This document shows positions 39,894-55,025 of a stretch of DNA of 64,000 nt, piece after piece. The stretch's first letter is position 1, and each line of letters starts with the position of its first letter. Under the pieces are notes generated by a model. The model worked only from the letters and a program-made list of their open reading frames with translations. It ran no database searches and had not been told where the DNA came from. The position numbers and the translations under genes are program-made. Origin of the DNA: a virus (taxonomy: Duplodnaviria; Caudoviricetes); IMG/VR virus record IMGVR_UViG_3300044829_000002, positions 12,916 to 76,915 of that record; one strand, 5' to 3'.

Positions 39894-39970
39894 TGCCGCG
39901 CCTCCCAAACGTTACGGTTTGTAGCGCAGCATATCTACCGGGAGTCGATTTTGCCGCGTCGTCTTCGCGG

Positions 39971-40555
39971 CTAGATCCAACGCCGGGGTAATCCCTGAGT
40001 GCCGCCGCCTCGGTCCCAGTGCCAGTTATAGGTCACTTCTGGCAAGTGAACGATCTTGGCATTCTGCGCCACGCAGTCCATCGTGAATCGCTCGTCTTCC
40101 CCGCCGACGATCGGCCACTCCTCATCAGGTGGCGTGAACCGTACCGCCTGCGCCAGCTCGGTTCTCACCATCACCCCGGACATGCTGCCGGTGATGTGGG
40201 GCTCGGCGTTGTCGAACGGCTTGCCGAAATACGGCAGTGGGTCCGGGCCGCGAATGTAGGTCAGGTCATACCAGCCGTATACGTAGTCCGCGTCGGTGTC
40301 CTCGGCGCAGGCTAGTAGTCGTTCGATGTGCTGCGGCTTGTGCTCGTCGTCGTCGTCCAAGAACGCAACCCACGTGGTACGCACACCGGCCAGCGCCCGA
40401 TTGCGGGTGTCCCATGCACCGATGTGAAACAGATCCACAGCGACAGACACACCGTCAACCCGGTGGGTCTGCTCCCACACCGAATCGAGCGCCCGCCACA
40501 GCAAGTCTCGACGCGGCGGGATGGTTGGAATAGCGACCGTCACGTCGCGTTTCAT
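39971..40555 (-). CDS. glycosyltransferase family 2
   Basis: VAIPTIPPRRDLL..ALDSV..TRNRAL..WVAFLDDDDE..GGED. Confidence 0.85.
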   Translation of the reverse strand: MKRDVTVAIPTIPPRRDLLWRALDSVWEQTHRVDGVSVAVDLFHIGAWDTRNRALAGVRTTWVAFLDDDDEHKPQHIERLLACAEDTDADYVYGWYDLTYIRGPDPLPYFGKPFDNAEPHITGSMSGVMVRTELAQAVRFTPPDEEWPIVGGEDERFTMDCVAQNAKIVHLPEVTYNWHWDRGGGTQGLPRRWI

Positions 40556-40860
40556 CAGCCGAGGCGGTCCACGAGTACAGCGGCGGCTCCCCACACGGCC
40601 AGCCAGATCAACACCGGCAGCGGTAGGCCCCGGATCAGCCAGGTACCACCCACCAACCCGAGGGAGATCCAGCCGGAGGAGCACCAGTGACAGGACACCA
40701 ACTCACCGATAGCCCAGTGATTGCCGTTGGGCCGGTCCGGTCGCAGCCCCACGATCTTGTCCCGTGTCCACTGGACGGGCGGGAAATCGTCCTTGACTGT
40801 CAGCCGCGTTAAGCGAGCTGACCCAACCGATAATACAATCAGTAGTAGCCAGAGTGTCAT
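40555..40860 (-). CDS. DUF1360-like membrane protein
   Basis: ARLTRLTVKDD...GELVSCHWCSSGW. Confidence 0.7.
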   Translation of the reverse strand: MTLWLLLIVLSVGSARLTRLTVKDDFPPVQWTRDKIVGLRPDRPNGNHWAIGELVSCHWCSSGWISLGLVGGTWLIRGLPLPVLIWLAVWGAAAVLVDRLG

Positions 40861-41399
40861 TCTCCCACCACTCTCAATATCCCCAACTCGTGCGGACATA
40901 CGCCGCCATTGATATGCCGCCCGAAATTACAGTTAGCGCACAACACCCGGAATCCTGCCGGGTAGCCGCGTTTACGTAGCCAGCCAGCGAGACGCACGCC
41001 ATTAGTTTCGCGTCGATGAGCCGCGCCGTTGCTCTCAATGTGATCTAGTTGCAGAAACGCTCGCTCAGTCTCGCCGCAGCAACAGCAGAACCCGCCATAC
41101 GCGTCAATGGCTGCCTGCTGATCCGCTCTCGCCCACGATGCGTTCTGCTCTCGACGTCGTTCACGATTGAGTTCTCGGAGTTCTCGTTCCCGAGGTTTGT
41201 ACGCCTCGTTATATGCCTTGACGTGCTCCCGATGCTTAGCTCCCCAAACCCTATGCCGCTCTCGGTACAACTCTCGGTGAGCTTGGCGGTACGCTCTCAT
41301 GCACGTTTTACATTGACTGCACAGGCCGTCTTTCTTACCCTTGCTGCGCCAGAACTCATCGTCGGGCTTGCTTACCTTGCAACCCGTACAACGCCTCAT
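40857..41399 (-). CDS. HNH endonuclease with N-terminal zinc finger
   Basis: CTGCKVSKP..F..DGLCSQCKTC; CCCCGE..LQLDHI..VLCANCN. Confidence 0.8.
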   Translation of the reverse strand: MRRCTGCKVSKPDDEFWRSKGKKDGLCSQCKTCMRAYRQAHRELYRERHRVWGAKHREHVKAYNEAYKPRERELRELNRERRREQNASWARADQQAAIDAYGGFCCCCGETERAFLQLDHIESNGAAHRRETNGVRLAGWLRKRGYPAGFRVLCANCNFGRHINGGVCPHELGILRVVGE

Positions 41400-41635
41400 G
41401 CCCGCTCCGGCCAGTGCCAGGTGCCGCCGGGTGAATCCTCCGGCATCGAATGGCCGATGTGCTGATTGAGGAAGATGCCTTGCGGGTTCATCACGGCCAG
41501 CCCTACTCGGTGCTCGTCGTCGTCGGCGTCCACTTCGGTCACGATCGCGGCGCGGCATTGCTGCGTGTACTCGCCGCCCGGTGTGCCGTAGCTGACGTAG
41601 TGAACGATGCGGCCCACGGTCGGTTGCTCAGTCAT
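41396..41635 (-). CDS. conserved phage protein
   Basis: PTVGRIVHYVSYGTPGGEY..CRAAIVTEV...GTWHWPER. Confidence 0.75.
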   Translation of the reverse strand: MTEQPTVGRIVHYVSYGTPGGEYTQQCRAAIVTEVDADDDEHRVGLAVMNPQGIFLNQHIGHSMPEDSPGGTWHWPERA

Positions 41636-41937
41636 GGCGCGACCTCCGGCGCGGCGTGCTCGCCAGGCTCGTCAGGCGGCACCCCCAGTAGCGGCGTGCT
41701 CGAATGAGTGTGTGGTGCGATGTAGCCAGCGACAGCGGCGCCGAGTGCGGAAATGACCAGCAACACCAGACCGGCCACAGGAGTAGGCACCGCAGCGACC
41801 GCGTCGGCAACATCAGCAGCGTCACCCGACGCGCCCCACACGGACACGCCAAGCAGCCACAGACCGAACGTGCCGAGCACGGCACCAGCACCAGACCCGG
41901 CCGTGGCAGCAACGACCTTCGTCTCGATCGCGCTCAT
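41632..41937 (-). CDS. holin-like membrane protein
   Basis: two TM segments ending AGYIAPHT; follows the endolysin. Confidence 0.6.
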   Translation of the reverse strand: MSAIETKVVAATAGSGAGAVLGTFGLWLLGVSVWGASGDAADVADAVAAVPTPVAGLVLLVISALGAAVAGYIAPHTHSSTPLLGVPPDEPGEHAAPEVAP

Positions 41938-42944
41938 GCTGGCCCCACAGGGTCAAGAGTGACGTTGCCAGTGTATTTCTGTGCGGGCAGTGCGGCAGCA
42001 ATGGCGGTGACAAGCGCTGCCAGTTGCGCATCTGAGAGGGAGAGGTTTACAACGGGAGGGTCTGCCTTGATCGCAGCCACGATCTCAGCCGTCGTCGGAA
42101 AGTCCAATGCGTTGACGGCAGCTACCGTGTCAGTACCAGCCTTGGTCGCTGCCTTTGTCGCGTTGTTCCCGGCAGCCGTAGCCGAGTTGCCTGCATTCAC
42201 CGCGTTCTGCGCGATAGTGCGCAACGGCGGATCACTGGTCACCACGGCGTATCGGATATCCGATACCCACTGTCTCGTATCTTGCAGGAATTGATGTTCC
42301 TCGGGTGTCATGTCGTCTCCTGTCGAGCTGTTGGCATAAGGGGAATCGGCGGGCCAGTGAGCATGCAACGCGCTCACGTCGGTGATCACGTTGCGATCTG
42401 TCGAGTATCCGGGAATGTAGTTGCCGACTTGCTGCCAGATGCAGATGTCGGGTGAACTGGCCGACCAGCCGGGGAAAGCCGTCGATGCGGACAGCCAGCA
42501 CTTCTGATCGATGATCCGATTGGCCCGCAGGTACTTGGCGAGATCTCCTTGCCCGTAGAACGAGATCAGATAGCGGCCCGCGTTGATGTCCTGAATGCCC
42601 CGGAACGCGTCAGCCACCGCGCCGTAACTCGACGTGGGCACGTTGACGTCCACGCTGAACGGGAACCAGATGGTGCCGTCGGCCGGGAACTCGCAGCGGA
42701 TCGCGCCCTCAATACCGATCCGCGCCGCAGCTTGTCCAGCCGAACGGTTGGAGACTAGTTCCCACAGGCCGCGCTCGTAATTGGGCCAGGCACCCAGCCC
42801 AGCGGCGCGCAGCGCGTTGACATGCGATGCCGATTGGGCATATTGACCGGAGACGTAGACGTTGGAAGCGATGATGCCAGCAGCTTTGAGCACGCTCGGT
42901 GGCGGCGGGAACGCGTGATCAGATGCGAACAGAGGACCAGCCAT
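41934..42944 (-). CDS. endolysin, DUF1906/GH25-like glycoside hydrolase
   Basis: N-terminal TIM-barrel-like domain (NYE..IWFPFSVD..SFYG..WQQ..DRN), linker, helical C-terminus; lysis cassette context. Confidence 0.75.
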   Translation of the reverse strand: MAGPLFASDHAFPPPPSVLKAAGIIASNVYVSGQYAQSASHVNALRAAGLGAWPNYERGLWELVSNRSAGQAAARIGIEGAIRCEFPADGTIWFPFSVDVNVPTSSYGAVADAFRGIQDINAGRYLISFYGQGDLAKYLRANRIIDQKCWLSASTAFPGWSASSPDICIWQQVGNYIPGYSTDRNVITDVSALHAHWPADSPYANSSTGDDMTPEEHQFLQDTRQWVSDIRYAVVTSDPPLRTIAQNAVNAGNSATAAGNNATKAATKAGTDTVAAVNALDFPTTAEIVAAIKADPPVVNLSLSDAQLAALVTAIAAALPAQKYTGNVTLDPVGPA

Positions 42945-42953
42945 GCCTGAACC

Positions 42954-43295
42954 TTATCGTCTAGCTATTTCATCACCGACGTACTGATGACTGACTGTGC
43001 CGCGTCTGCGAAACACGGCGGCAGCGAACAGCCACAGCCGCCACCATAGACAGATCACGACGAACCCGAACGCGAGCAGCCGCAGCCATTGAAACGTCAC
43101 CGAGCGGGGATTAACGAAGTGGCTCAAGGTTGACAGGTCGAGCACGAGCGCAATGGAGATCATGTACATCATCAAGTGCTTGCCGATCGCGGTCCTCCGC
43201 CACGGCACGCGCGTGTATGCCAACGGCGCCAGGTTGGCTGGGACACAAGCCACGTACAGCATCCATGTCCCTATCGTGATCAACGTCGGGTTCAT
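42954..43295 (-). CDS. membrane protein (lysis cassette)
   Basis: three TM segments, PWRRTAIGKHLM motif. Confidence 0.7.
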   Translation of the reverse strand: MNPTLITIGTWMLYVACVPANLAPLAYTRVPWRRTAIGKHLMMYMISIALVLDLSTLSHFVNPRSVTFQWLRLLAFGFVVICLWWRLWLFAAAVFRRRGTVSHQYVGDEIARR

Positions 43296-43501
43296 TCCTG
43301 ACCGTCTCTCCCGCTGAGAACCTGGACCAGATCCTCAGCGATGTAGTTACGTTCGATTCGTCGCGTGAGTTTCTGAACAAGTGCTTTGACCTCAGACGCT
43401 TCATTGTGTGTTTGGGCCAGAAGTTTCTTCGCCTCATTGTGTGTTTCGGTGTGCTTGGCTTGCTGTTGACGTCCGCGTCGCCAGTTCAGCACCCTAATCA
43501 C
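43292..43501 (-). CDS. hypothetical protein (lysis cassette)
   Basis: helical; RRIERNYIAE motif; overlapping start/stop. Confidence 0.6.
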   Translation of the reverse strand: MIRVLNWRRGRQQQAKHTETHNEAKKLLAQTHNEASEVKALVQKLTRRIERNYIAEDLVQVLSGRDGQE

Positions 43502-43790
43502 CGCCTAACTCGCTCCTGCCGTGCTTGGCCCGTACCGCCTGGTCAACAGCCTCGAACGTCTTCTGTGCAGCCAGCGCGGTCGGCAGGATAACCTGCTGGA
43601 ACTGTGAGCGGTTCTCTAGGGCGAGGCTACGCCACAGGTCACGGTCAGCTTTAACTTCCTCGTAAGTGCTGCGCTGCACCCAATCTCGCAGTACGGAGCG
43701 AGGCCACCACCGTCCGGTGAAGATCATCAGTACGGCGATTGTGACCAGGCCGCCGGCTCCGATGGGTGCGGCCAGGCTCCACTGAATCAT
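43494..43790 (-). CDS. membrane protein (lysis cassette)
   Basis: N-terminal TM, then coiled coil RDLWRSLA. Confidence 0.65.
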   Translation of the reverse strand: MIQWSLAAPIGAGGLVTIAVLMIFTGRWWPRSVLRDWVQRSTYEEVKADRDLWRSLALENRSQFQQVILPTALAAQKTFEAVDQAVRAKHGRSELGGD

Positions 43791-44419
43791 CAGCGAGTAG
43801 CGATCAGGATGGTCACACCGACCGACACCATCAGGATCACGGTGCCGATGATTGACAAGAGCTGCGCCGTGTCCAGCCGCCGCGCGTTGGTGTTGTCCAC
43901 GCCACCGGCCCGGTATTGCTCGATCGTGGTCAGTCGATCCTTCAAGTCAGCGATCTGCGCGGCCAGCGCGTCGGTCGTTGACTTGAACAACTCGGCCAGT
44001 TTGTTGATCGTTTCGCCGGTGGCGACCTCGGATTTATTGATCGCCAGCGTGTTGGACTTGTTCTGCTCGGAGCTGGCTTCCTTCTGCGCGGCAAATGCCG
44101 CGTCTACAGCAACCTTGTTGTCTCGCGCCTCCCGTTCCTGGCGGGTGTCGCGCTCAGCGAATTGGGTGCCGACGGAATGGAACTTCTCATCCGACAGCTC
44201 CCGCAGATGGGTGATCTCTTTCTGAATGTCGGTCGGAGTCCGGTTCACGGTCTCATTCAGCAGTCGAGTGGCAGTGTCGATGCCACGCAGCCGTTCGCGG
44301 ATCACGTCGAGCTGGCCGTCCACGTAATCCCGTTCTGCCTGCACCGACCGGATCAGTTGCTCGGTCGTGAGCACGGTCGGATCTGGTACTGGGGGTCTTT
44401 CAACACTGGTCATGATCAC
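43790..44419 (-). CDS. coiled-coil protein with C-terminal TM segment
   Basis: PVPDPTVLTTEQL..KVAVDAAFAAQKEA..; terminal hydrophobic helix. Confidence 0.7.
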   Translation of the reverse strand: MIMTSVERPPVPDPTVLTTEQLIRSVQAERDYVDGQLDVIRERLRGIDTATRLLNETVNRTPTDIQKEITHLRELSDEKFHSVGTQFAERDTRQEREARDNKVAVDAAFAAQKEASSEQNKSNTLAINKSEVATGETINKLAELFKSTTDALAAQIADLKDRLTTIEQYRAGGVDNTNARRLDTAQLLSIIGTVILMVSVGVTILIATR

Positions 44420-44463
44420 CCTCCCCTTAATTCACAGGAAGCGTATATGACCGCAAGCGAATT

Positions 44464-45024
44464 CTAGGCGGCGAGCCAATCCTGATTGACGATGTATGAC
44501 GTCCAGTCCGACGGCTTGACCCGGCGACCGTCAGCCAGCGACGGCGACGGCTGATGCAACGCCCGATAGAGGAACGCGAACAGCGACGAGCACACCACAT
44601 GACCCGGCACCCCGGCTCCGTGCCAGTTGGACGCGAACAGCGACGGCAGGCCGAGCGCGTCCATCCCGTCGGCGGCGATGCCGACCCAGTCGTATTTGGT
44701 GCCGATCGTCTGCACCATGTTGTGCGCTAGCGCGTCCGACACCGGGTCGGTGAGCGGCTGATAGATGTTGGACATCATCAGTTTGGAGTTGAAATATCGG
44801 CGCATGTCCACCCAGCCGACGCCGCCTGGTCTGCCCTCAATGCCCCACGGGACACCGTCGGTCCAGTGATGGAACCCGGCGACGTGATTGCCGAGATTGG
44901 GCTTGTCTCGCAGACAGGCACCCCAGCGGATCATGCGGCCTGAGAACCCGGCCGAGCGGACGACGAACACGTGCCCTGGTTTGAGCTGTTCATACATCGG
45001 CAGTAGGTCCACCATCGCAGCCAC
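44464..45024 (-). CDS. permuted papain-like NlpC/P60 (YiiX/YebB-like) enzyme
   Basis: LKPGHVFVVR..NHVAG..IEG..IGTKYDW..VVCSSL..PSDW (His before Cys). Confidence 0.75.
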   Translation of the reverse strand: MAAMVDLLPMYEQLKPGHVFVVRSAGFSGRMIRWGACLRDKPNLGNHVAGFHHWTDGVPWGIEGRPGGVGWVDMRRYFNSKLMMSNIYQPLTDPVSDALAHNMVQTIGTKYDWVGIAADGMDALGLPSLFASNWHGAGVPGHVVCSSLFAFLYRALHQPSPSLADGRRVKPSDWTSYIVNQDWLAA

Positions 45025-45026
45025 TC

Positions 45027-45461
45027 CTATCGCCAGATTTTGTGCCGCACAATCAGACTGACATGACTTTGATCAATGCCGAACGCGTCCGCGATGACAT
45101 ATTGCGTCTCTGCGCCTGTCGCATAGCGGCGTCGGATCTCGTCAACTTGCTCGCGTGTGAGTTTTGCATATCCGTTGCTCTCGCCGGGGAAACTATTGCG
45201 GGCATCCCGACCACGGGCGTGGCGGTCAGCGACATTCTCTTGCTGCGTTCCCTCGTACAGATGTCCCGGCGCAGTGGAGATACACACCGGATTGTCGCAG
45301 TGATGATTGGCTTGATAGCCAGGACGCGGCAGTCGGCCCAGGTGGTCGATCAAGGCCACCTGATGAGCGAACGTGAATTGCCTGCCGAACCGCCACGCCT
45401 TCTGCCGGGCATATCCGTCACAGTTACGAGTGCCAGGGGCTTCGATGCATGCCGATGTCAT
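45027..45461 (-). CDS. HNH homing endonuclease with C-terminal HTH
   Basis: AHQVA..ANHHCDNPVCI..HLYEGTQQENVAD; GESNGYAKLTREQVDEIR..IADAFGIDQSHVSLI. Confidence 0.85.
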   Translation of the reverse strand: MTSACIEAPGTRNCDGYARQKAWRFGRQFTFAHQVALIDHLGRLPRPGYQANHHCDNPVCISTAPGHLYEGTQQENVADRHARGRDARNSFPGESNGYAKLTREQVDEIRRRYATGAETQYVIADAFGIDQSHVSLIVRHKIWR

Positions 45462-46081
45462 TACCAGTTCTCCGGCTGGCCGCTCGTGTTGCGGTCATGA
45501 TGTCTCCAGTACCAAGACTGCTCCGGTAGATGCACAATCCGGGCACCCGCTGCAACACAGCCTAATTCAAACCGCCAGTCCTCACCTCCGGCGATATCAC
45601 CCTCAGCCGGTGGCGTGAATCCAACAGCCTGCGCCAGCTCGGTCCGGCACAGCACCGTCATGGTGGTGTGGTGCGGGTTGGACGGGTCGAACACCTTGCC
45701 GAAATGGCCCAGCACATCCCACGATCGGGACGTGTCCCAGTAGGAGAACACGTAGTCGGCCACCATCTTGTGGGCGCAACCCAGCAGCCGTTCCAAGTGC
45801 TGCGGGTAGAACTCGTCATCGTCATCCAGGAAGGCCACCCACGGGGTGATCACCGGATCGAGTGCCCGTTGCCGGGTCGCCCAGGCCCCGTCATGGTCAC
45901 GGTCAACAGCTATCGAGATCGCGGCCGGTAGATGCGACTGCCGCAACGCACTGGACACAGCCAGAGGGAGCAGAGTGTCGGCTCGCGGCGGGATGGTAGG
46001 GATCACCACCGTCACCGCATCGTCGTCCATAGTGCCGATCCTCAGCAATTGAGCGCTGGCTTCCGCCGCGAGGCTTGTCAT
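45461..46081 (-). CDS. glycosyltransferase family 2
   Basis: VVIPTIPPR..GAWATRQRAL..WVAFLDDDDEF..GGEDW. Confidence 0.85.
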   Translation of the reverse strand: MTSLAAEASAQLLRIGTMDDDAVTVVIPTIPPRADTLLPLAVSSALRQSHLPAAISIAVDRDHDGAWATRQRALDPVITPWVAFLDDDDEFYPQHLERLLGCAHKMVADYVFSYWDTSRSWDVLGHFGKVFDPSNPHHTTMTVLCRTELAQAVGFTPPAEGDIAGGEDWRFELGCVAAGARIVHLPEQSWYWRHHDRNTSGQPENW

Positions 46082-46335
46082 GAGTACAGCGCTCCGCGCG
46101 CCTTGGACACGGCCCGCTGCAACTCTTCCGCCTCGTCCGGGTAGCGGTAAGGCACGCCGTGGAACACGAGGTTGATCGTGCCGATACGTACACCGTTCTC
46201 CTCGGATACGCCTGCGACATATTCGGCGACCCATGACAGGTCCATCGGCCCAAGTGGCGGCAGTGGCCTGATCGGTGGCGGGACGAAATATTCAGGCATT
46301 GCCTGCTCCGAACGCAACATAGTCATGGTCCCCAT
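46078..46335 (-). CDS. hypothetical protein
   Basis: overlapping ORF between the dehydrogenase and GT2 genes. Confidence 0.5.
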   Translation of the reverse strand: MGTMTMLRSEQAMPEYFVPPPIRPLPPLGPMDLSWVAEYVAGVSEENGVRIGTINLVFHGVPYRYPDEAEELQRAVSKARGALYS

Positions 46336-47488
46336 CAGCGAGGTACGGGTGGCAGCGCCACAGATCGATCACGCGGGCACCCGGTTTCAACGTGCCCCGG
46401 AGATCCAGGCCGACCAGCGGCAGCGCGAGCACGACGATGTCAGCCTCAGCCTCATGAGCCTCGACCAAATTACCTCGCGCCAGCTCGTACGCGAGCCGGT
46501 CGCCGAACGAGTCGATCCTGTACCCGGTGCCCGTCTTGTAGGAGCGGCCCAGCACGGCGAACGTCTTACCGGCCAGCTCGGTGAACGTCAACCCGCCGAG
46601 CGCCAAATGCCGGACCCAGGCCAGATGCTCCTCGTTCATCGCGTGAGTGACCGCGCCGAGCGAACCACCGGCAGCAGCGTAGGCATGCCCGTCACGCGGC
46701 AGACACGGCCCGCCGAACCCGGCACCAGGAGTCATGGCCTTGTGACCGATCAAGGACTGAGCCGTCAACGCGGCTACCACGTCGTCGGCGTTGGCACCGC
46801 GCTCATGACACATACGCCCGATCTGATTGGCGAAATTGATCTTCAACGTGGCGAACACATTAGTTGCCAGCTTGGCGATCTCAGCCGACTCATAGGACAT
46901 GATCATCGGCCGCGACTTCGGAGCCACCTTGCGCAGAATCGCCGACACCACGTTCGCCGCGATCGGATTCTCATCCCCGATGATCTGCACTTCCGCCGCC
47001 CGCAAATCCTGGATCACACTGCCCAATGCGATCAAGGTAGGGCAGTAGATCAAGACCTGTTTCAACGAACGGGCCAACGGCAGCAGCGTGTCCCGGCACG
47101 CACCCGGCGAGACCGTGGACACCACACCCACGATGCACCGCTCCACCGTCCGACTAGGACCGAGATCCTTCATGGCCTGCTCGACATAGTCAGTGACGAA
47201 CTTCCCCTCCAGCGACGGTGTCGGCACGACGATGAACACCACGTCGGCGTGCTCCAGCATGTCCCGAGGCCGCGTCAACAGCAACGCATCAGGCAGGAAA
47301 GAATCCGCATACGGCTCCTGGAGACGCGTCCGGCCCACCTTCACTTCCTCTCGCACTGCCGGGTCGCTGTCCCATGCCAACACGTCCGCATCAGATGCGG
47401 CCAGAGTGAGCGCGAACGGCAGACCAAGTTTTCCGAGCCCGAGAACTCCGACGATGGGCCTACTCAACAGCTTGTCTCCTATCTTCAT
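46292..47488 (-). CDS. UDP-glucose/GDP-mannose 6-dehydrogenase family protein
   Basis: GLGKLGLP Rossmann; VVPTPS; STVSPG; AEIAKLATN; GFGGPCLPRD (catalytic Cys); GRSYK. Confidence 0.9.
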   Translation of the reverse strand: MKIGDKLLSRPIVGVLGLGKLGLPFALTLAASDADVLAWDSDPAVREEVKVGRTRLQEPYADSFLPDALLLTRPRDMLEHADVVFIVVPTPSLEGKFVTDYVEQAMKDLGPSRTVERCIVGVVSTVSPGACRDTLLPLARSLKQVLIYCPTLIALGSVIQDLRAAEVQIIGDENPIAANVVSAILRKVAPKSRPMIMSYESAEIAKLATNVFATLKINFANQIGRMCHERGANADDVVAALTAQSLIGHKAMTPGAGFGGPCLPRDGHAYAAAGGSLGAVTHAMNEEHLAWVRHLALGGLTFTELAGKTFAVLGRSYKTGTGYRIDSFGDRLAYELARGNLVEAHEAEADIVVLALPLVGLDLRGTLKPGARVIDLWRCHPYLADGDHDYVAFGAGNA

Positions 47489-47697
47489 CGCGGGTATCTC
47501 AAGGGGTACCCGTAGATCAAAGGCACGTCATAAGACATCGGCAGCGGCTTGCCTATTGGACTCTCCCACAACTTCATGATCTCAATGCCCAGTGTCGTCT
47601 CGGTACACCAGTGAGGCCCGCAGCAAATCGACACAGGACATTCGTCCAGAACACAAAACGGCTCAGTTGGATCAAGCGCCATGAATCGCTCAGTCAT
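47485..47697 (-). CDS. hypothetical Cys-containing protein
   Basis: overlapping start/stop codons with neighbours. Confidence 0.45.
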   Translation of the reverse strand: MTERFMALDPTEPFCVLDECPVSICCGPHWCTETTLGIEIMKLWESPIGKPLPMSYDVPLIYGYPLRYPR

Positions 47698-48157
47698 GAC
47701 GGCGTAGATGCTCTCTCTTGAAACGCTGGCGTTCATTCTTACATGTCCGGCATGACCGCCAGCCGCGCTTGTCAACGCTAGTGTTTCTCTCATCGAATTG
47801 ATGTCCACGCAGACAGTGTGTTCTACGTTCATTCCCGTTCGTTCGATGACGCCCCTTAGTCAGGCAGTCGTGCATATTGTCAGTTTGCGTGCCGAGCCAT
47901 AGATGATCATCGGCCCAGCACGGCGGGTTGTCACAGCGGTGTAGGACGTGGGGAGTCTCAGGCGGGATTGGGCCATGCCGTTCGATCCACGCGAGGCGGT
48001 GGACAAGATAAGTCTTGCCCTTGATTCTGACTTGCCCATAGCCGTCCTGGGTCGTTGTACATCTGTCCCATACGAGGCACGGCGTGTCGAGCGGGCCACT
48101 CTGCTCGTGAGACGTCAGCAGCAGTCGGTCAGCCGAGTTCGTGGAGTCGGTCTGCAC
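47690..48157 (-). CDS. HNH homing endonuclease
   Basis: GYGQV..VHRLAW..VLHRCDNPPCWADDHLWLGTQTDN; THCLRGH..CRTC. Confidence 0.85.
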   Translation of the reverse strand: MQTDSTNSADRLLLTSHEQSGPLDTPCLVWDRCTTTQDGYGQVRIKGKTYLVHRLAWIERHGPIPPETPHVLHRCDNPPCWADDHLWLGTQTDNMHDCLTKGRHRTNGNERRTHCLRGHQFDERNTSVDKRGWRSCRTCKNERQRFKREHLRRHD

Positions 48158-48800
48158 CGCGACCTCCCGTGTTTCCTTTGGCCCCGGATTCAGCGGGCCT
48201 TATCGAGTACCGCCAAGTCTTGATGCCGCAAGCATGATAGAACCTCGCCCCTGCATCCAACATGCGGATCAGCGCCAGGTAGTCTTCGCATTCGCCGCTG
48301 AACGGCACGCGCATGCTGTACGGCTGAGGGAACCCGCCAGCCTTCCGAATCGTCGCCGTCCTCACCAGATACGTGACAGGCACGAAATTGCCGACCCTGC
48401 GCAGCCATAGCGCTTGTTTCGGCCCGAACGGAATATTGATCGGCTCAGCCACCAACTTGCCGTTGTCGTCACAGCAGGCCAGCGGGTCACGCCCACCGAT
48501 GATCTCCGGGTAACTGAACACCATGTCCGCGCCTGTCCGGTTCGCTGCCTTGACGAGCACTCGCAGATGGTTCGGCTTGAATTCGTCGTCGTCGTCAAGA
48601 AAGGCAACCCAATCCGTCGTTACTCGCTCCAAGGCTTTGTTGCGCGTGGTCGCCGCACCCTCCCGCTCCGTGTCGAGTTGGACGACGATGTCGCCGGGTG
48701 GCGCCTGCTGATTGCGGACCGAGTCCAGCGCTAATTCGAGCAAGGTCTCCCGGCCGGGAATCGTCGGAATCAGCACGGTCACATCGGATGCGCGGATCAT
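48129..48800 (-). CDS. glycosyltransferase family 2
   Basis: VLIPTIPGRETLL..GAATTRNKAL..WVAFLDDDDEF..ECEDY. Confidence 0.85.
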   Translation of the reverse strand: MIRASDVTVLIPTIPGRETLLELALDSVRNQQAPPGDIVVQLDTEREGAATTRNKALERVTTDWVAFLDDDDEFKPNHLRVLVKAANRTGADMVFSYPEIIGGRDPLACCDDNGKLVAEPINIPFGPKQALWLRRVGNFVPVTYLVRTATIRKAGGFPQPYSMRVPFSGECEDYLALIRMLDAGARFYHACGIKTWRYSIRPAESGAKGNTGGRGADRLHELG

Positions 48801-49948: not shown

Positions 49949-49966
49949 GCGGGCTATCTCCCTTGC

Positions 49967-49990
49967 GGTCGTGTGCGGTACGACACTACC
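49967..49990 (-). promoter_or_regulatory. operator GGTCG-N9-CGACA (49967-49985) overlapping -10 TAGTGT
   Basis: abuts the stop of the SAM methyltransferase gene. Confidence 0.6.
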
Positions 49991-50759
49991 GCTTCATGCG
50001 TAACGTTGCTGCTAAGTAGCGGCGATTCGGCGTCAGATACGTCACCGACTCCACATCGAACCACTCACCGAATCGCTCAACCAGCCGAGCCTCGTCATAC
50101 CAATCCGCCCACATGCCAACCTCATCGAACGCACGCAGGAACGTCTCACGCATCGGATCATCCGTCACATCATGCGGCGGCTCCGTACCGGTGTACAGCC
50201 GCCACCCTTCATCGGAATACACCATCAGGCGAACCTCACCCAGCGATTGGAGCAGCCCCGCGAATCGTTGCATCGTAGGGATCGGCTGGCGGATATGGTG
50301 CAGCACTCCGGCGCAATGCACCACGTCCACATCCTTGGGCAAGCGGCTGCTGTAGCTCTCAGGCATGACGGTGCTTCCGGCCGGTTCGTAGCCGTACAGC
50401 CGCAGCACCCGCTCAGCTAGTCGCACGTTGGACTCAACGATGTCGGCCAGCCAAACCTCATTGCCAGCCTTGGCGTATTGCAGCGCCTCGACGCCGATCC
50501 CGCAGCCATAGTCGAGTACGTGGGCGTCACGGGTGACATCGAGCTTCAACGCGGACCGCCACAATCCTTCGTGATTGCGCCACCCGGTGTAGCGGGTGAC
50601 CTCCAGCGTGTCGATCACATTCCGCAGCGCGACATCGTCCAGTTGCAGCAACTCCGCCGACGACACGTAGCCAACATCATCTACTGGGATTCTGACCCAT
50701 TCACGCACGGCGACATGGTCGGTCAGAATCAATGACTTCTCTGGGTCCATCCGGTACAT
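49986..50759 (-). CDS. class I SAM-dependent methyltransferase
   Basis: VLDYGCGIG; LADI; DVVHCAGVLHHI. Confidence 0.85.
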   Translation of the reverse strand: MYRMDPEKSLILTDHVAVREWVRIPVDDVGYVSSAELLQLDDVALRNVIDTLEVTRYTGWRNHEGLWRSALKLDVTRDAHVLDYGCGIGVEALQYAKAGNEVWLADIVESNVRLAERVLRLYGYEPAGSTVMPESYSSRLPKDVDVVHCAGVLHHIRQPIPTMQRFAGLLQSLGEVRLMVYSDEGWRLYTGTEPPHDVTDDPMRETFLRAFDEVGMWADWYDEARLVERFGEWFDVESVTYLTPNRRYLAATLRMKR

Positions 50760-50761
50760 GA

Positions 50762-52018
50762 TCAGGTCTCCCTGGCGGGCTTGCCGCCCTTGCCGATGAT
50801 CTCTAGATGGGGGAGCGGGAAGATCAGTTTGCCGCCTGAGTTCAGATAGCGTTTCTCCCGCTCGATGATTTGCGACCGAAACCACCACGGCCCAATTAAC
50901 ATATAGGCCGGTTTACGGTCACGCGCCTCAGCCTCGCTGATGATCGGCACGCCGACCGCCGAGAACATCTTGCCCACCTTGTCAGGGTTGCGCTCCACCG
51001 CGAACCGGCAGTCAAGCTCATCTACCTGTGCGGCCTGCCAGATCACGGCACCACGCGTGGATGCGGCGTACAGGTAGCACTCTTGATTCCGACGGTTGAT
51101 GCGGTCTAGCAGCGCACGCAGCTTGGATAACTCGGCATATGCGCGTCGCCCGAACTCTTGATAAGTGTGAGGCTCGTTCAGCTTGGCGACCCGTTCCAGC
51201 TTCAATTGCGCATCCACGCTGCTGTTCGGGTGGAACCATGCGTCCTTGCTGGCGACCACAGTGCGGAACGAGCCGCCGTTGATGTCTGACGTCTGCACAT
51301 CCAGCACTTGCATGCCGTGTCGGTCCAGCAGGTTCACCAGCGCGGCCAGCGACCAGTAGGTGATGTGCTCGTGGCAGATGTTGTCCAGCGAGTTGGCTTC
51401 CAGCATCGCCTTGACATAGTTCTGCTGAATGACCCAGATCCCGTTCGGTGCCAACACCTTGGCGACTTGAGTAACGAACTCGCCCGGATCGTCCACGTCG
51501 TAGAACATGCTGATCGATGTGACGACATCAAACCGGGTGTCAGTCACGGCCGGGATCACGTCCCGCTCGTAGGTCATCACAGCCTGCTCGGAGAAATAGT
51601 CCGAGATCACGCGGTCGGCGTGCTTCAAAGCCAGCTCGCCGAACTTCTCCACCGGATCGATGCCGACACGATAGATGCGCTGCGGCACGAACGAAAGCAA
51701 CGTGCCGTCATTGGACGCGATGTCAAGCCAGTTGGTCGCGTTCGGCTTCCAGGACAATGCCTGAATCACCGCCGATTCCAGATCCTTGACGATGCCCTCG
51801 TTCACACCGCTATAGAACCCGTAGTCATCCCGGTACAGCAGCTCGCGTGGTGCCGTCTCGCTCAACTGCACCAGATGACAATGCATGCATATCTGTAGGC
51901 ACAGCGGAAACTTCGGTGGCTTGGAGTCGTCATCCCGGAATGCTGAGAGGTACTGATCTCCCAGATCCAACAGGTCGATGAGCATATCTGACCCGCAAGC
52001 CCTGCACACAGTTCCCAT
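50762..52018 (-). CDS. NDP-hexose C-methyltransferase (zinc-finger N-terminus)
   Basis: CRACGS..LDLGDQ..C..CHLVQL; LDIASNDGTLL; NSLDNICHEHITYWS; YAASTRG..; IFPLP. Confidence 0.9.
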   Translation of the reverse strand: MGTVCRACGSDMLIDLLDLGDQYLSAFRDDDSKPPKFPLCLQICMHCHLVQLSETAPRELLYRDDYGFYSGVNEGIVKDLESAVIQALSWKPNATNWLDIASNDGTLLSFVPQRIYRVGIDPVEKFGELALKHADRVISDYFSEQAVMTYERDVIPAVTDTRFDVVTSISMFYDVDDPGEFVTQVAKVLAPNGIWVIQQNYVKAMLEANSLDNICHEHITYWSLAALVNLLDRHGMQVLDVQTSDINGGSFRTVVASKDAWFHPNSSVDAQLKLERVAKLNEPHTYQEFGRRAYAELSKLRALLDRINRRNQECYLYAASTRGAVIWQAAQVDELDCRFAVERNPDKVGKMFSAVGVPIISEAEARDRKPAYMLIGPWWFRSQIIEREKRYLNSGGKLIFPLPHLEIIGKGGKPARET

Positions 52019-52899
52019 CAGTGCCGCCAGTAGTCGAGTAGGCCGGTGAGCATCGTGTCGAGATCAATTTCCGGCTCCCAGCCGGTGGCATCGTGCAGTT
52101 TCTTGGTTGATGCGGTGAAGTTGTTACCCGGTGCCTTCCTGTGAAGGTGCTCGTCCAGCTTGGTCGGCACCGTCACTCCCGCCAATTCGATCATGCGGTT
52201 GACGTAGGCCTGCATCGTCCACGTCCGGCCGCGTGCCACGTTGTAGATTCCCGGCTCCAAGTCGATCGCCAGCCGGTAGGCACGCACCACGTCCCGCACG
52301 TCACTGAAATCGCGGTAGGCGTCCAGGTTGCCGTGCGTGAACACCGGCTCCCGGCCTGCCGCGACATCGGCGATGCGGCGGGCGAACGCGGGCAACGCGT
52401 ACGTGGATGACTGGGCCGCGCCGGTGTGATTGAACGCCCGCGTGATCACCACGTGCATGCCGTACTGCCACGAGTAGGCCAGCCCGAACGCGGTGGCACC
52501 GGCCTTGGACGCGCCGTAGGGTGTCGTCGGCCGGGTCGGCGAATCTTCCGTGATCAGTGCGTGGCTGTAGCCGTACTCCTCCGACGTGCCAGCCAGCAGC
52601 ACCCGCGCATGACTGCCCAACTGGCGTACAGCTTCCAGCACGTTGACCGTGCCGAGCACGTTGACGTCCACCGTCCGCAGCGGGTCGGACACCGACTCGG
52701 CCACGTACGCCTGCGCCGCCAGGTGAAACAAGAGATCAGGCTGGTACAGATCGACCGCCGCCCGCACGTCTTCATACGAGCGAATGTCCCGCCCGTCGGT
52801 CAGGTCGAACCCGTGGCAGTGAACACCCTCAGCGGTCAGCAAGGCGACGAGCTGCCGACCGGCGAACCCTGCGTGCCCGGTTATGAGCGCCGTGGTCAT
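52018..52899 (-). CDS. extended SDR NDP-sugar reductase/dehydratase (Rmd/Gmd-like)
   Basis: ITGHAGFAG; HLAAQAYV; GTSEEYG; PYGASK; RAFNHTG; GNLDAYRDFSDVRDVVRAY; TGWEP. Confidence 0.9.
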   Translation of the reverse strand: MTTALITGHAGFAGRQLVALLTAEGVHCHGFDLTDGRDIRSYEDVRAAVDLYQPDLLFHLAAQAYVAESVSDPLRTVDVNVLGTVNVLEAVRQLGSHARVLLAGTSEEYGYSHALITEDSPTRPTTPYGASKAGATAFGLAYSWQYGMHVVITRAFNHTGAAQSSTYALPAFARRIADVAAGREPVFTHGNLDAYRDFSDVRDVVRAYRLAIDLEPGIYNVARGRTWTMQAYVNRMIELAGVTVPTKLDEHLHRKAPGNNFTASTKKLHDATGWEPEIDLDTMLTGLLDYWRH

Positions 52900-53210: not shown

Positions 53211-53230
53211 GATGCAATTCCTTTCCTAGA

Positions 53231-53464
53231 TCAGATCCATGCAGGCAGTGACCCGATGGTGTCCATAAGATCGCTCAGGAACTTCTCGGCCTGAGCCTGA
53301 GTCATGTTCACGCCGTCCTCCCACCACAAAGTCGTGATCGGCGTACCAGCCTGATCACGGCCCAACACCACGTAGTAGCCGGGATTGTTCACATCGGCCG
53401 CGACGTCCATGCTGTACACCAGATCGAGATTGACCCACGCCTGACTCTTATCCTTGATCCACAT
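53231..53464 (-). CDS. hypothetical protein
   Basis: ATG at 53464 after GGAAGG. Confidence 0.55.
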   Translation of the reverse strand: MWIKDKSQAWVNLDLVYSMDVAADVNNPGYYVVLGRDQAGTPITTLWWEDGVNMTQAQAEKFLSDLMDTIGSLPAWI

Positions 53465-54125
53465 TTCGCGTCGCCTTCCACTCGTTGATTTGCCGGACGC
53501 TGCGGGCGAGCCCGTTTTGGACAGGTGCGCTTTCCCACTGACTCGGGGAGCTTTGCCTGATGCGGCCTTCCCTGTACGTGTCGTCATCGTTGCAGCCTGT
53601 CATGTCAAACCGATCATGCCGAACCTGCACGTCCGGCAGGTATTGGATCGTGCCGGTCAGTCGGCCTACTTCCTGCCAATACGTGTCGCAGTGCTGCGTG
53701 TAGGGACTCATGCCGCCGACAACCTCAATGGCCTCGCGGCGGATCACGGGGAAGGTGCACAGCATGGGTGAGTGCCCTTCGCTGTACAGATCCGCGACCA
53801 AGATGTTGGCCGGTAAAGCCTCGATCACAGCGTCCCATCCAGGGGTGAGCATCACGGCATCGTCATTCCAGAGCATGATCCAATCACCAGATGCCCGCGC
53901 GGCTAGCGCGTTGAAATATTCATTCAGTCGCGCATAGCCGTAACGCTCAGGGGCCACCCACACGGAATCGAAAGGCTCACGCACACACCGCGACGGCACT
54001 TCATCGTCAGGGTCCAGCGCTAGCAGTATCTCAAGATCCCCTACATCGCTGGTCGCAATCAGAGACGCTAGCGACCGTTCCAGCAACTCAGGCCGCTTTC
54101 GCGTCGGCACCAGTACCGAGATCAC
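53448..54125 (-). CDS. glycosyltransferase family 2
   Basis: ISVLVPTRKRPELL..ALDPDD..MLWNDDA..HCDTYW. Confidence 0.85.
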   Translation of the reverse strand: MISVLVPTRKRPELLERSLASLIATSDVGDLEILLALDPDDEVPSRCVREPFDSVWVAPERYGYARLNEYFNALAARASGDWIMLWNDDAVMLTPGWDAVIEALPANILVADLYSEGHSPMLCTFPVIRREAIEVVGGMSPYTQHCDTYWQEVGRLTGTIQYLPDVQVRHDRFDMTGCNDDDTYREGRIRQSSPSQWESAPVQNGLARSVRQINEWKATRNVDQG

Positions 54126-54316
54126 GACGCCGCCTTTATTGCGTGTGCCCGTCGTGTATTCCGCTGCTGCTCACTAGCTGTTGCCCAGCGAACGTTACCT
54201 GGCTCGTAGTTACCGTCGTTATTGATCCGGTCGAGCGCGGGTGTCGGCGGTATCCTCGTTAAACTCAACACAACCCAGCGGTCAAATCGGTCGCCGGGTT
54301 CAACCACAAGCGGCAT
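54122..54316 (-). pseudogene. internally deleted HNH homing endonuclease remnant (64 aa)
   Basis: N-terminal GDRFDRWVVL joined almost directly to C-terminal LDRINNDGNYEPGNVRWATASEQQRN. Confidence 0.65.
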
Positions 54317-55025
54317 TGATTGCCTCCTGTAATCGTGCTGCATCCTTGACCCGTTGGGGTGCCAGATCTCGGTAGAGTTGGTCAACATTGTCTTGCACGT
54401 GTCGAGCCAGCCGATCTTGATGAGTCTGATCCCACTCACCTTTACCTGCAATCGGGTGCATGTGTTCGATGTACACCTCAGGCAGATACACCCGACGCTG
54501 AATCATATCTGCCATAGTGCTTAAGTAAGTGTCGTTGTAATCTGACGAGAAATATGGCGGCATGAAGTAGCCCAGCGCATTAACCCATTGCCGACTGTAG
54601 AACCCGAGCGTTGCCATACCTGCGTTCATGATGCCGTCCCGGCCGTGCACGCAGGCGATGCCGTCAGGGAAGCGGCGGAACCCTTCCCGGATCTCCATGT
54701 CCCAGCGCATGGATCGGAAGATCACATCATCGTTTCCGTGCCAAAGTATCTGGCCGGTGGCGAGTTTGTAACACTCGTTCCACGTCTGAGACAACAGGAT
54801 GCGCGGACCCAGCGCTGCGCGATAGTTGTCAGGCAGATCGTCGGCGCGAGCCGGACGCATCATTGTGTCGTCATCCTCGTCCACGTAGATAATCAGTTCC
54901 AGCAGCTCCGGGTGTACAGCGGTGCCGCGAGCTGAGTCCCACATGAGTTTGAGCTGGCCCGGTCGGCCGCGGGACGGCACTAGCAGGCTGATCTTCCAGT
55001 GCCAGTCGTCCCATTCAGGATTCAC
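54300..55025 (-). CDS. glycosyltransferase family 2
   Basis: ISLLVPSRGRP..YVDEDDD..GNDDVIF..YFSSDYNDT..IEHMHP. Confidence 0.85.
   Translation of the reverse strand: MNPEWDDWHWKISLLVPSRGRPGQLKLMWDSARGTAVHPELLELIIYVDEDDDTMMRPARADDLPDNYRAALGPRILLSQTWNECYKLATGQILWHGNDDVIFRSMRWDMEIREGFRRFPDGIACVHGRDGIMNAGMATLGFYSRQWVNALGYFMPPYFSSDYNDTYLSTMADMIQRRVYLPEVYIEHMHPIAGKGEWDQTHQDRLARHVQDNVDQLYRDLAPQRVKDAARLQEAINAACG

What the first reader, a model, noticed from the sequence alone, without database searches (positions are those of the whole stretch)
39971..55025. Phage-encoded glycan assembly line (six GTs plus its own nucleotide-sugar enzymes), probably for virion glycosylation
Seen: five GT2 genes in two paralog groups (39971, 45461 and 48129 share IPTIPxR/WVAFLDDDDE; 53448 and 54300 share ISxLVPxRxRP), a GT4 at 12598 as the last gene of the tail operon, a UDP-glucose-dehydrogenase-family gene, a sugar C-methyltransferase, an extended SDR and a SAM methyltransferase. 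All are co-transcribed with packaging and structural genes, not replication genes. Known: some mycobacteriophages glycosylate capsid and tail proteins with a few GTs, and giant viruses encode nucleotide-sugar pathways. Inference: this phage builds a multi-residue glycan containing a uronic acid and a methylated deoxysugar on the virion, a more elaborate pathway than the GT-only sets I know from phages.
Basis: partly seen in the sequence, partly recalled or inferred. Interest (0 to 1): 0.85.

Follow-up and report, generated by a model that had tools for sequence, protein, structure and literature searches.

The report
Phage glycan cassette in virion operons
A complete, uncultured 77-kb soil phage carries six soluble sugar-transferring enzymes and four sugar-tailoring enzymes among its particle-building genes. 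It is an enlarged version of a gene cassette common in related uncultured phages, and it most likely coats virus proteins with a complex sugar chain, although what actually receives the sugars is not shown.

Summary
There are five GT2 genes in two paralog groups, a GT4-like gene closing the tail operon, a UDP-sugar-dehydrogenase-family gene, a 3-C-methyltransferase, an Rmd-like SDR and a SAM methyltransferase. HMMs, PDB sequence matches and two high-confidence folds support them.

New here: this is not a one-off.
- GT4 homologs occur in at least 227 IMG/VR loci, typically as the last tail-operon gene.
- In several phages GT2e, GT2, SDR, MT, UGDH and GT2c lie directly upstream of GT4 as one cassette.
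- In the closest relatives (L035/L067) the GT2 and sugar genes lie between terminase and portal and GT4 closes the tail operon, as in the window. L081 shows the same set upstream of its portal. The window has the largest set seen.

DNA glycosylation is unlikely: the genome has no thymidylate-synthase homolog, TET/JBP or C5-methylase. Lysogenic surface conversion is unlikely: there is no integrase, membrane GT or flippase.

Virion protein glycosylation is the best reading (about 0.55) but remains inference.
- The GTs are not orthologs of the proven Che8 enzymes.
- The capsid C-terminus is not Ser/Thr-rich.
- Ser/Thr-rich candidate acceptors (a TIPTP-repeat protein and a poly-Thr beta-helix protein) are not conserved in cassette-bearing relatives.

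The "own nucleotide-sugar enzymes" only tailor sugars; activation depends on the host. This scan has noted similar phage glycan islands on other DNA.

The parts
54300..55103 (-). GT2e, a GT-A glycosyltransferase of phrog_14945. The own gene call is 54300-55025, 241 aa.
   Evidence: phrog_14945 at 4e-36. AF2 model pLDDT 93.8; its GT-A fold matches PcManGT, WrtF, RmlT, TarP and SpsA. 166 homologs; the largest contigs listed are about 100 kb (phage size), and no named bacterial genome appears among the 120 listed.
53448..54125 (-). GT2d, a paralog of GT2e.
   Evidence: PF00535 at 23.9 bits (cut-off 23.3) and phrog_14945 at 4e-21. Shares the NDD motif with GT2e.
52018..52899 (-). Extended SDR, Rmd-like NDP-4-keto-6-deoxyhexose reductase. 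It is the only SDR in the genome.
   Evidence: PDB 2pk3 GDP-6-deoxy-D-lyxo-4-hexulose reductase at 1e-49 and 6x3b at 3e-40. GxxGxxG, TSEEYG and YGASK motifs. Single PF01370 match in the genome.
50762..52018 (-). NDP-sugar 3-C-methyltransferase (TylC3/TcaB9 type).
   Evidence: Pfam PF08421, PF13489 and PF08484. PDB 4rv9 D-mycarose 3-C-methyltransferase at 1e-39 and TcaB9 at 2e-33.
49986..50888 (-). Class I SAM methyltransferase (probable start near 50759). It is conserved in relatives' cassettes and is a probable sugar O-methyltransferase.
   Evidence: Pfam Methyltransf_12/23/31/25/11. 48-50% identical homologs sit inside the cassettes of L035, L081 and L159.
48129..48800 (-). GT2c, a GT-A glycosyltransferase of phrog_14775.
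   Evidence: PF00535 at 5e-14 and phrog_14775 at 4e-26. DDDDE motif.
46292..47488 (-). Nucleotide-sugar 6-dehydrogenase family (UGDH-like).
   Evidence: PF03721 and PF00984. TIGR03026 at 170 bits, below the 189.8 cut-off. PDB 3vtf and CalS8 at about 1e-26. GFGGPCLPRD catalytic-Cys motif.
45461..46234 (-). GT2b, a GT-A glycosyltransferase of phrog_14775. The own gene call is 206 aa.
   Evidence: PF00535 and phrog_14775 at 9e-45. 1167 homologs, mostly on phage-size contigs.
39971..40684 (-). GT2a, a GT-A glycosyltransferase of phrog_14775, directly upstream of the portal gene.
   Evidence: PF00535 at 1e-9 and phrog_14775 at 1e-43. 54% identical to GT2b.
12598..13818 (-). GT4-like GT-B glycosyltransferase, the last gene of the tail operon.
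   Evidence: phrog_7162 at 2e-26. AF2 model pLDDT 93.8; its GT-B fold matches methylmannose-polysaccharide mannosyltransferase, BshA, MshA and PimA. At least 227 IMG/VR loci; a TMP homolog lies 6-10 kb upstream in 26 of the 80 best.
12491..12538 (-). Strong stem-loop just after the GT4 stop codon, a probable end of the late operon.
   Evidence: 16-bp perfect stem. Region MFE -62.4 kcal/mol, z = -5.3.
40857..48157 (-). Non-glycan genes interleaved in the island: HNH1 40857-41558, GH lysin 41934-42944, holin 42954-43295, unknowns 43292-45024, HNH2 45027-45461, p115 47485-47832 and HNH3 47690-48157. The range also spans GT2b and UGDH, listed above.
   Evidence: Pfam and PHROG hits.
56780..56798 (.). 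Palindromic operator TGTCG-N9-CGACA, with a CTGTAC palindrome next to it, between TerL and the C1 peptidase at the head of the island.
   Evidence: Pattern search and sequence.
49967..49985 (.). Second operator-like palindrome (1 mismatch), directly after the MT stop codon inside the island.
29118..30302 (-). Candidate acceptor (speculative): p394, with an N-terminal hydrophobic stretch, a poly-Thr tract (18 Ser/Thr in 30 aa) and a beta-helix-like body.
   Evidence: Composition scan. Atlas features 0.93 and structure TM 0.60 to right-handed beta-helix clusters. Absent from relatives L003, L004 and L035.
26355..27935 (-). Candidate acceptor (speculative): a 526-aa protein with 20 repeats of 20-24 aa ending in [IV]P[TA]P; 28% Ser+Thr.
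   Evidence: Translation and repeat parse. GC3 of 0.74 supports this frame. No PHROG or Pfam hit. Similar repeats occur in actinobacterial LamG/GH proteins and on phage-size contigs.
31095..31775 (-). Major tail protein, a possible acceptor by analogy with Che8.
   Evidence: Annotated major tail protein in 377 actinophage records. Its C-terminal W.WN.TT.PP motif is a family trait.

Best explanation
The genes form one glycan-building module of a lytic, actinophage-like virus.

Ten soluble cytoplasmic enzymes act on host-supplied activated sugars.
- The UGDH-like enzyme oxidises an NDP-hexose to a uronic acid.
- The TylC3-type C-methyltransferase and the Rmd-like reductase convert a host NDP-4-keto-6-deoxyhexose, probably GDP-linked, into a 3-C-methyl-6-deoxyhexose.
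- The class I methyltransferase O-methylates a sugar.
- The GT-B enzyme and five GT-A enzymes of two families add these sugars stepwise.

The most likely acceptor is one or more phage structural proteins, glycosylated in the cytoplasm before or during assembly. Candidates are the tail tube, the poly-Thr beta-helix protein and the TIPTP-repeat protein. The result would be a virion carrying a multi-residue O-glycan.

Shown: the enzyme families and folds, their solubility, the cassette's conservation, and its placement in virion operons.

Inferred: the substrates, the order of steps and the acceptor.
For: 1. The enzyme identities are well supported.
2. Functional linkage: in L159, L171 and L184 the genes GT2e, GT2, SDR, MT, UGDH, GT2c and GT4 are contiguous. 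The closest relatives (L035/L067, with L155 apparently the same contig by its length) show the same split as the window; L081 shows only the GT2/sugar part, directly upstream of its portal.
3. Placement is always inside virion modules, either after the last tail gene or around TerL and portal. 20 of 40 portal-anchored relatives have a GT2a/b/c-type gene there.
4. No GT has a transmembrane segment, and the island has no flippase-size membrane protein.
5. The complete genome lacks PF00303, PF12851 and PF00145. Published routes to glycosylated DNA bases start from such enzymes (PMC13326640; bioRxiv 10.1101/2023.12.21.572611).
6. There is no Tyr or Ser integrase, so lysogenic conversion is unlikely.
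7. Precedent: mycobacteriophages glycosylate capsid and tail tube proteins with GT sets; in cluster O phages the GT genes lie next to an O-methyltransferase (Freeman 2023, as summarised in PMC11600133, PMC12619734 and PMC12363180).
8. Ser/Thr-rich proteins are encoded in the structural module.
Against: - No direct evidence names any acceptor.
- Similarity to the proven Che8 enzymes is weak: GT2c against the gp108 N-terminus is 27% at 3e-7, and there is nothing for gp109 or gp110.
- The capsid C-terminus is not Ser/Thr-rich.
- The tail-tube Thr motif also occurs in a cultured phage; no glycosyltransferase is annotated in the 22.6 kb of that phage viewed, but its GT content was not checked.
- Ser/Thr-rich ORFs are not found after the tail-tube gene in GT2-bearing relatives, except L077. 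The window's candidate acceptors are therefore not a clade feature.
- Internal operator sites, identical in type to those before non-structural genes, leave the timing of expression open.
- The closest folds include wall-teichoic-acid glycosyltransferases.
Confidence: 0.55

Rival explanations
1. Late-phase modification of a host envelope glycopolymer. The soluble GTs would act on lipid-linked wall teichoic acid, linkage-unit or arabinogalactan-type precursors at the cytoplasmic face. This would alter the infected cell's surface, for example to stop progeny from adsorbing to debris or to exclude other phages.
For: The GT2e model's best fold matches include RmlT, TarP and TarS, which are soluble wall-teichoic-acid glycosyltransferases; TarP is prophage-encoded. 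NCBIfam gives weak hits to TuaG and TuaD of teichuronic acid synthesis. The lysis cassette lies inside the island.
Against: There is no integrase, so no lysogenic conversion. No polyprenyl-phosphate GT, flippase or ligase is present, and no GT has a transmembrane segment. The cassette's conserved home is the virion operons, including the very end of the tail operon. Fold matches to GT-A enzymes do not indicate the acceptor.
Confidence: 0.2
2. Glycosylation of phage DNA bases as an anti-restriction hypermodification, with the sugar enzymes supplying unusual donors.
For: Phage DNA glycosylation with phage-encoded nucleotide-sugar genes is known, for example UDP-arabinose genes in RB69 and DLP3 (PMC13326640). 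The GTs are soluble.
Against: The complete 76.9-kb genome has no thymidylate-synthase homolog, TET/JBP dioxygenase or C5 DNA methylase. The replication and recombination genes identified by Pfam are an N6/N4 methylase, RecT and YqaJ; no polymerase or dNTP enzyme was seen, but part of the genome was not scanned. The cassette is in structural operons, not in the replication module.
Confidence: 0.07
3. The acceptor is a small molecule, a peptide or a free cytoplasmic glycan. Examples are inactivation of a host anti-phage metabolite, a glycocin-like peptide, or a methylated polysaccharide akin to mycobacterial methylmannose polysaccharide.
For: The best fold match of GT4 is the methylmannose-polysaccharide mannosyltransferase of M. 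hassiacum, and BshA and MshA (small-molecule GTs) follow. SunS, a peptide S-glycosyltransferase, is among the GT2e matches. Methyltransferases accompany the GTs.
Against: No precursor peptide or other natural-product genes were seen. Six GTs of three families suggest a defined oligosaccharide on a polymeric acceptor. Steady linkage to virion genes is not explained.
Confidence: 0.1

Closest known systems
Mycobacteriophage virion O-glycosylation (Che8 gp108-110, Corndog, Myrna; Freeman et al. 2023, Cell Host Microbe; read only through summaries in PMC11600133, PMC12619734 and PMC12363180)
   Same: An actinophage-type virus encodes several soluble glycosyltransferases next to a methyltransferase (the methyltransferase pairing is described for cluster O phages such as Corndog). 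Virion proteins are the plausible acceptor.
   Different: The GTs here are not orthologs; only GT2c resembles the gp108 N-terminus weakly. The set is larger, with six GTs of three families. It adds a sugar dehydrogenase, a 3-C-methyltransferase and an Rmd-like reductase. It sits inside the structural operons, not near the genome's right end as in Che8. Glycosylation is unproven here.
Reduced, uncharacterised cassettes in cultured actinophages: Arthrobacter phage Atuin gp165/169/170 with a nucleotidyltransferase, and Streptomyces phage Zuko gp5 and gp106-108
   Same: True homologs of all three GT families. Atuin gp165 matches GT4 at 31% (5e-40). Atuin gp169 and Zuko gp106 match GT2a/b/c at 33-49%. 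Atuin gp170 matches GT2d/e at 25-29%. Zuko has a GT-MT-GT trio.
   Different: The cultured phages carry one copy of each family, have no UGDH, C-methyltransferase or SDR, and place the genes among non-structural genes. No functional data were found for them.
Contiguous seven-gene cassette of uncultured soil phages (IMG/VR loci L159, L171, L184)
   Same: The same families in one block after the tail genes: GT2e-like, a further GT2, SDR, MT, UGDH-like, GT2c-like and GT4-like.
   Different: Their SDR is RmlB-like, a 4,6-dehydratase type, where the window has a C-methyltransferase and a reductase. The window has duplicated GT2 genes and has split the cassette between two sites.
Phage DNA sugar hypermodification (T4 glucosyl-hmC; arabinosyl-5hoC of RB69/DLP3, PMC13326640; Pyle et al., bioRxiv 10.1101/2023.12.21.572611)
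   Same: Phage-encoded soluble GTs, sometimes with nucleotide-sugar enzymes.
   Different: The committing base-hydroxylating or hydroxymethylating enzymes are absent here, and the genes are not in a replication module.
Giant-virus (chlorovirus, mimivirus) capsid glycosylation machinery
   Same: A virus-encoded, host-independent set of GTs and nucleotide-sugar tailoring enzymes that builds unusual methylated or deoxy sugars (recalled knowledge, not tested here).
   Different: Those are eukaryotic viruses with unrelated capsids. No sequence relationship was tested.

Membership tests
Che8-type mycobacteriophage virion glycosylation system | Glycosyltransferases homologous to Che8 gp108, gp109 and gp110 | tested here: not met
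   blastp gives only GT2c against the gp108 N-terminus (27% over 99 aa, 3e-7) and GT2a against gp108 (7e-4). There is no hit to gp109 or gp110.
Che8-type mycobacteriophage virion glycosylation system | Methyltransferase gene adjacent to the GT genes (a feature described for cluster O phages such as Corndog) | tested here: met
   A class I SAM methyltransferase lies at 49986-50888 inside the island and is conserved in relatives' cassettes.
Che8-type mycobacteriophage virion glycosylation system | O-glycans on the C-termini of capsid and tail tube subunits | not testable with these tools
   At sequence level the MCP C-terminus is not Ser/Thr-rich. The tail tube has a Thr-Pro motif, but it is a family-wide trait.
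Phage DNA glycosyl-hypermodification | An enzyme that creates the hydroxylated base: a thymidylate-synthase homolog (hmC, hmU, 5hoC), or a C5-methylase with a TET/JBP dioxygenase | tested here: not met
   PF00303, PF12851 and PF00145 are absent from the complete genome. The controls worked for PF00303 and PF00145 (10 of 14 genomes each); the PF12851 control rang in only 1 of 14 genomes and below its cut-off, so that absence is weaker.
Prophage surface-glycan conversion (Gtr-type, TarP-type) | Temperate lifestyle with an integrase | tested here: not met
   No PF00589 or PF00239 match in the complete genome.
Prophage surface-glycan conversion (Gtr-type, TarP-type) | Membrane-bound GT, flippase or other export component | tested here: not met
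   No hydrophobic 19-residue segment in any GT, and no multi-pass membrane protein in the island. This was a simple hydropathy scan.
GT2 / GT-A glycosyltransferases | GT-A fold with an acidic DXD-type motif | tested here: met
   PF00535 hits for four of the five. DDDDE or NDD motifs. The GT2e model has a GT-A fold with Foldseek probability 1.00 to GT2 structures.
GT4 / GT-B glycosyltransferases | Two-Rossmann GT-B fold with similarity to GT4 enzymes | tested here: met
   Model pLDDT 93.8. Foldseek matches 7qsg, BshA, MshA, PimA and WaaG at E of 1e-12 to 1e-10. Pfam Glyco_trans_1_2 scores 25.1 bits at cut-off 25.
NDP-hexose 3-C-methyltransferase (TylC3/TcaB9/KijD1) | N-terminal zinc-binding domain, SAM methyltransferase domain and C-terminal C-methyltransferase domain | tested here: met
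   PF08421, PF13489 and PF08484 are all above their cut-offs. Full-length PDB matches to 4rv9, 3ndi and 5t64. Activity and regiochemistry were not tested.
Rmd (GDP-6-deoxy-D-lyxo-4-hexulose reductase) | Extended SDR with a Ser/Thr-Tyr-Lys triad, closest to characterised Rmd enzymes | tested here: met
   The best PDB hits are the two Rmd structures (1e-49 and 3e-40), ahead of the GMD and RmlB enzymes. TSEEYG and YGASK motifs. The nucleotide carrier and stereochemistry are not testable here.
UDP-glucose/GDP-mannose dehydrogenase family | N-terminal NAD domain, central domain with catalytic Cys, and C-terminal nucleotide-sugar-binding domain, scoring above the family threshold | tested here: inconclusive
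   The N-terminal and central domains are above the Pfam cut-offs and the GGPCLPRD motif is present. PF03720 was not detected, and TIGR03026 scores 170.2 against the 189.8 cut-off.

The most novel reading that the evidence does not exclude
A large, so far uncultured clade of soil actinophage-like viruses carries a dedicated, modular glycan cassette: GT-B initiator, two GT-A families, sugar dehydrogenase, SDR and methyltransferases. The cassette would give the particle a phage-made heteroglycan coat. In this phage it would be elaborated into a uronic-acid- and C-methyl-deoxysugar-containing glycan displayed on mucin-like fibre proteins (the TIPTP-repeat protein and the poly-Thr beta-helix protein). 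Virion glycosylation would then be a common, diversifying trait of soil phages and no longer a curiosity of a few mycobacteriophages.
Probability: 0.3. Interest if true: 0.75.

Novelty: new variant of a known kind. Interest (0 to 1): 0.5.

Why it matters
Virion glycosylation in bacteriophages has been shown experimentally only for a few mycobacteriophages, with small GT sets.

If this cassette glycosylates virions, complex phage-made glycans with unusual sugars would be widespread in soil phages. The counts seen here are at least 227 IMG/VR loci for the GT4 gene and more than 1000 protein clusters for the GT2b family. Such glycans could affect particle stability, adsorption, evasion of host or environmental recognition, and phage therapy design.

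The work also gives concrete cultured test cases, Atuin and Zuko. It supplies a compact source of a sugar 3-C-methyltransferase and reductase pair for glycoengineering.

If the target is instead the host envelope or a small molecule, that would be a new late-phase phage strategy.

Tried and rejected
1. DNA near-identity search of the island against 50,697 phage records found no match. TerL-based scans of IMG/VR and of the metagenome collection also found nothing. Only a portal profile reached relatives.

2. I looked for a Ser/Thr-rich C-terminal tag on capsid and tail tube, as in Che8. The MCP has none. The tail-tube W.WN.TT.PP motif is present in 23 of 28 relatives whether or not GT2 genes lie nearby. 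A related motif is also in cultured phage Smarties. I rejected it as evidence.

3. I tested whether mucin-like ORFs co-occur with GT2 genes in 25 relatives. Only L077 has such an ORF, so there is no correlation. The TIPTP protein has no relative in IMG/VR by pattern scan, and its repeat occurs in varied actinobacterial and phage proteins.

4. My first 'GT-minus' label for relatives was unsound. GT4 lies about 25 kb from the portal, outside the fetched flanks. Several contigs that appeared GT-free do carry GT4, judged by matching contig lengths.

5. The SDR as UDP-xylose synthase partner of UGDH was rejected: the Rmd hits (1e-49) far exceed the UXS hits (about 1e-12 to 1e-13).

6. PDB sequence search gave nothing useful for GT2b, GT2e or GT4, so I used folds instead.

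7. The promoter and terminator consensus scan of the island was no better than shuffles.

This ruled out gene-context look-ups for the repeat-protein homologs and any expression or sample data.

9. Freeman et al. 2023 (PMC10527164) is not held. Its content is cited only through other papers' summaries.

Full report
**Source and layout**

The window is bases 12916-76915 of a complete 76,915-bp IMG/VR virus record with direct terminal repeats. It has about 62% G+C, and nearly all genes are on the minus strand.

The capsid, portal and tail-tube genes resemble those of actinophages. The capsid protein matches the 'major capsid hexamer protein' of Streptomyces, Gordonia, Microbacterium and Mycobacterium phages. 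No close relative exists among 50,697 phage records.

Reading in the direction of transcription, the order is:
- TerL 56808-58238
- papain-like peptidase
- GT2e, GT2d
- Rmd-like SDR
- 3-C-methyltransferase
- SAM methyltransferase
- small ORFs, DUF6085
- GT2c, HNH
- UGDH-like gene
- GT2b, HNH
- unknowns, holin, GH lysin, HNH
- GT2a
- portal 38079-39908
- head, tail-tube, neck and tail genes
- GT4 12598-13818

**Observation**

- The two GT2 paralog groups and their motifs are confirmed.
- GT2e has no Pfam hit. It folds with pLDDT 93.8 into a GT-A domain that matches GT2 enzymes.
- GT4 folds with pLDDT 93.8 into a GT-B enzyme that matches GT4 members.
- A strong hairpin follows GT4. Then comes an operator-bearing region before the recombination genes. 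GT4 therefore does close the tail operon.

The UGDH-like protein has the catalytic-Cys motif but scores below NCBI's family cut-off.

The SDR is closest to Rmd reductases. It is the only SDR in the genome, and there is no sugar-1-phosphate nucleotidyltransferase. The phage therefore tailors host-activated sugars and does not own a full pathway.

**What the relatives show**

A portal profile retrieved 80 metagenome loci.
- Of 40 loci with at least 6 kb upstream of the portal, 20 carry a GT2a/b/c-type gene next to TerL or portal, and 20 carry an SDR.
- The closest relatives (L035/L067, MCP 65% identical) and L081 carry GT2e-like, a further GT2, SDR, MT (UGDH in L081), GT2c-like and GT2b-like genes in that position. 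In L035/L067 the block lies between TerL and portal; L081, a 7.7-kb fragment, shows it directly upstream of its portal.

GT4 homologs occur in at least 227 IMG/VR loci.
- In 26 of the 80 best loci a tape-measure homolog lies 6-10 kb upstream, so the gene habitually ends the tail operon.
- In L159, L171 and L184 the whole set lies in one block right after the tail genes: GT2e, GT2, SDR, MT, UGDH, GT2c and GT4. L151, L167, L175 and L185 show similar blocks.

This physical linkage is the best evidence that GT4 and the TerL-portal island belong to one pathway. It also shows that the window's set is an expanded, split version of a common cassette.
- In those cassettes the SDR is RmlB-like. The window has instead a C-methyltransferase with a reductase.
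- Cultured phages Atuin and Zuko have reduced versions.
- The listed GT2e homologs lie on contigs of at most about 100 kb. GT2b homologs lie mostly on phage-size contigs, with some on contigs up to 187 kb and one in a Frankia genome.

**Target**

DNA is unlikely. The complete genome has no thymidylate-synthase homolog, TET/JBP or C5 methylase. Published glycosylated bases start from such enzymes (PMC13326640; bioRxiv 10.1101/2023.12.21.572611).

Lysogenic surface conversion is unlikely. There is no integrase, no membrane GT and no flippase-size membrane protein.

The precedent is virion protein glycosylation in mycobacteriophages (Freeman 2023, via PMC11600133, PMC12619734 and PMC12363180). 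It fits the soluble GTs, the adjacent methyltransferase and the steady placement in virion operons.

Several points weaken that fit.
- The GTs are not orthologs of the Che8 enzymes.
- The MCP C-terminus is not Ser/Thr-rich.
- The tail-tube Thr-Pro motif is a family trait.
- The window's Ser/Thr-rich proteins, p394 and the TIPTP protein, are absent from cassette-bearing relatives. No Ser/Thr-tag correlation was found.
- Operator palindromes inside the island leave the timing of expression open.

I put virion protein glycosylation at 0.55, host envelope glycopolymer at 0.2, a small molecule or free glycan at 0.1, and DNA at 0.07.

**Comparison and novelty**

This is a new variant of a known kind. 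It is a phage GT cassette presumed to act on the virion. Its GT families differ from the proven system, and it adds sugar tailoring (uronic acid, 3-C-methyl-6-deoxyhexose, O-methyl).

It is not unique. The cassette family is widespread in uncultured soil phages, and this scan has flagged similar islands on other DNA.

**Limits**

Freeman et al. could not be read directly.

Noticed in passing
window 40857-41558, 45027-45461, 47690-48157: Each GT2a/b/c paralog abuts an HNH endonuclease gene. HNH2 and HNH3 are paralogs (35% over 75 aa, 4e-9). GT2-HNH pairs also occur in L016 and L151. This suggests homing-endonuclease-linked spread or duplication of this GT gene.
   Followed up: partly
window 55893-56672: A papain-family (C1) cysteine peptidase gene sits directly after TerL, behind both palindromic operators (56740-56798). 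Its role is unknown; it could act in lysis, maturation or something else.
   Followed up: no
window 41934-43295: The lysis cassette (Rv2525c-like glycoside-hydrolase lysin and a family-2 holin) lies between terminase and portal, inside the glycan island. No LysB-type esterase was detected among the island proteins scanned, which hints at a host without mycolic acids.
   Followed up: no
window 29118-30302: p394 has an N-terminal hydrophobic stretch, a poly-Thr tract (18 Ser/Thr in 30 residues, over imperfect 21-nt DNA repeats at 29950-30110) and a right-handed beta-helix-like body. It could be a depolymerase-like fibre encoded between the tail-tube and adaptor genes.
   Followed up: partly
window 26355-30302: A four-gene block (p394, p225, p145 and the TIPTP-repeat protein) is inserted between the tail-tube and head-tail adaptor genes. 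In Microbacterium phage Smarties these two genes are adjacent, and in relatives L003/L004 only a short stretch with p175 and p116 homologs separates them.
   Followed up: partly
window 36639-38075: The MuF-like head protein carries a C-terminal region with a weak 2',5' RNA ligase-superfamily match (20 bits, below the cut-off).
   Followed up: no
L028:1097-3733 (also L052, L074): The terminase large subunit of some relatives appears as an 878-aa ORF or as two separated matches. This may be an intein or an inserted domain.
   Followed up: no
window 15802-18471: An 889-aa tail protein has a CBM_4_9 carbohydrate-binding domain match. It is a likely receptor-binding component that recognises a host glycan.
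   Followed up: no
window 12365-12383 and 56780-56798: The two zero-mismatch operator copies are almost identical (TGTCGCATCCAGTGCGACA and TGTCGCATCCAGTACGACA). One precedes the recombination genes and the other precedes the glycan island, which suggests common regulation.
   Followed up: partly
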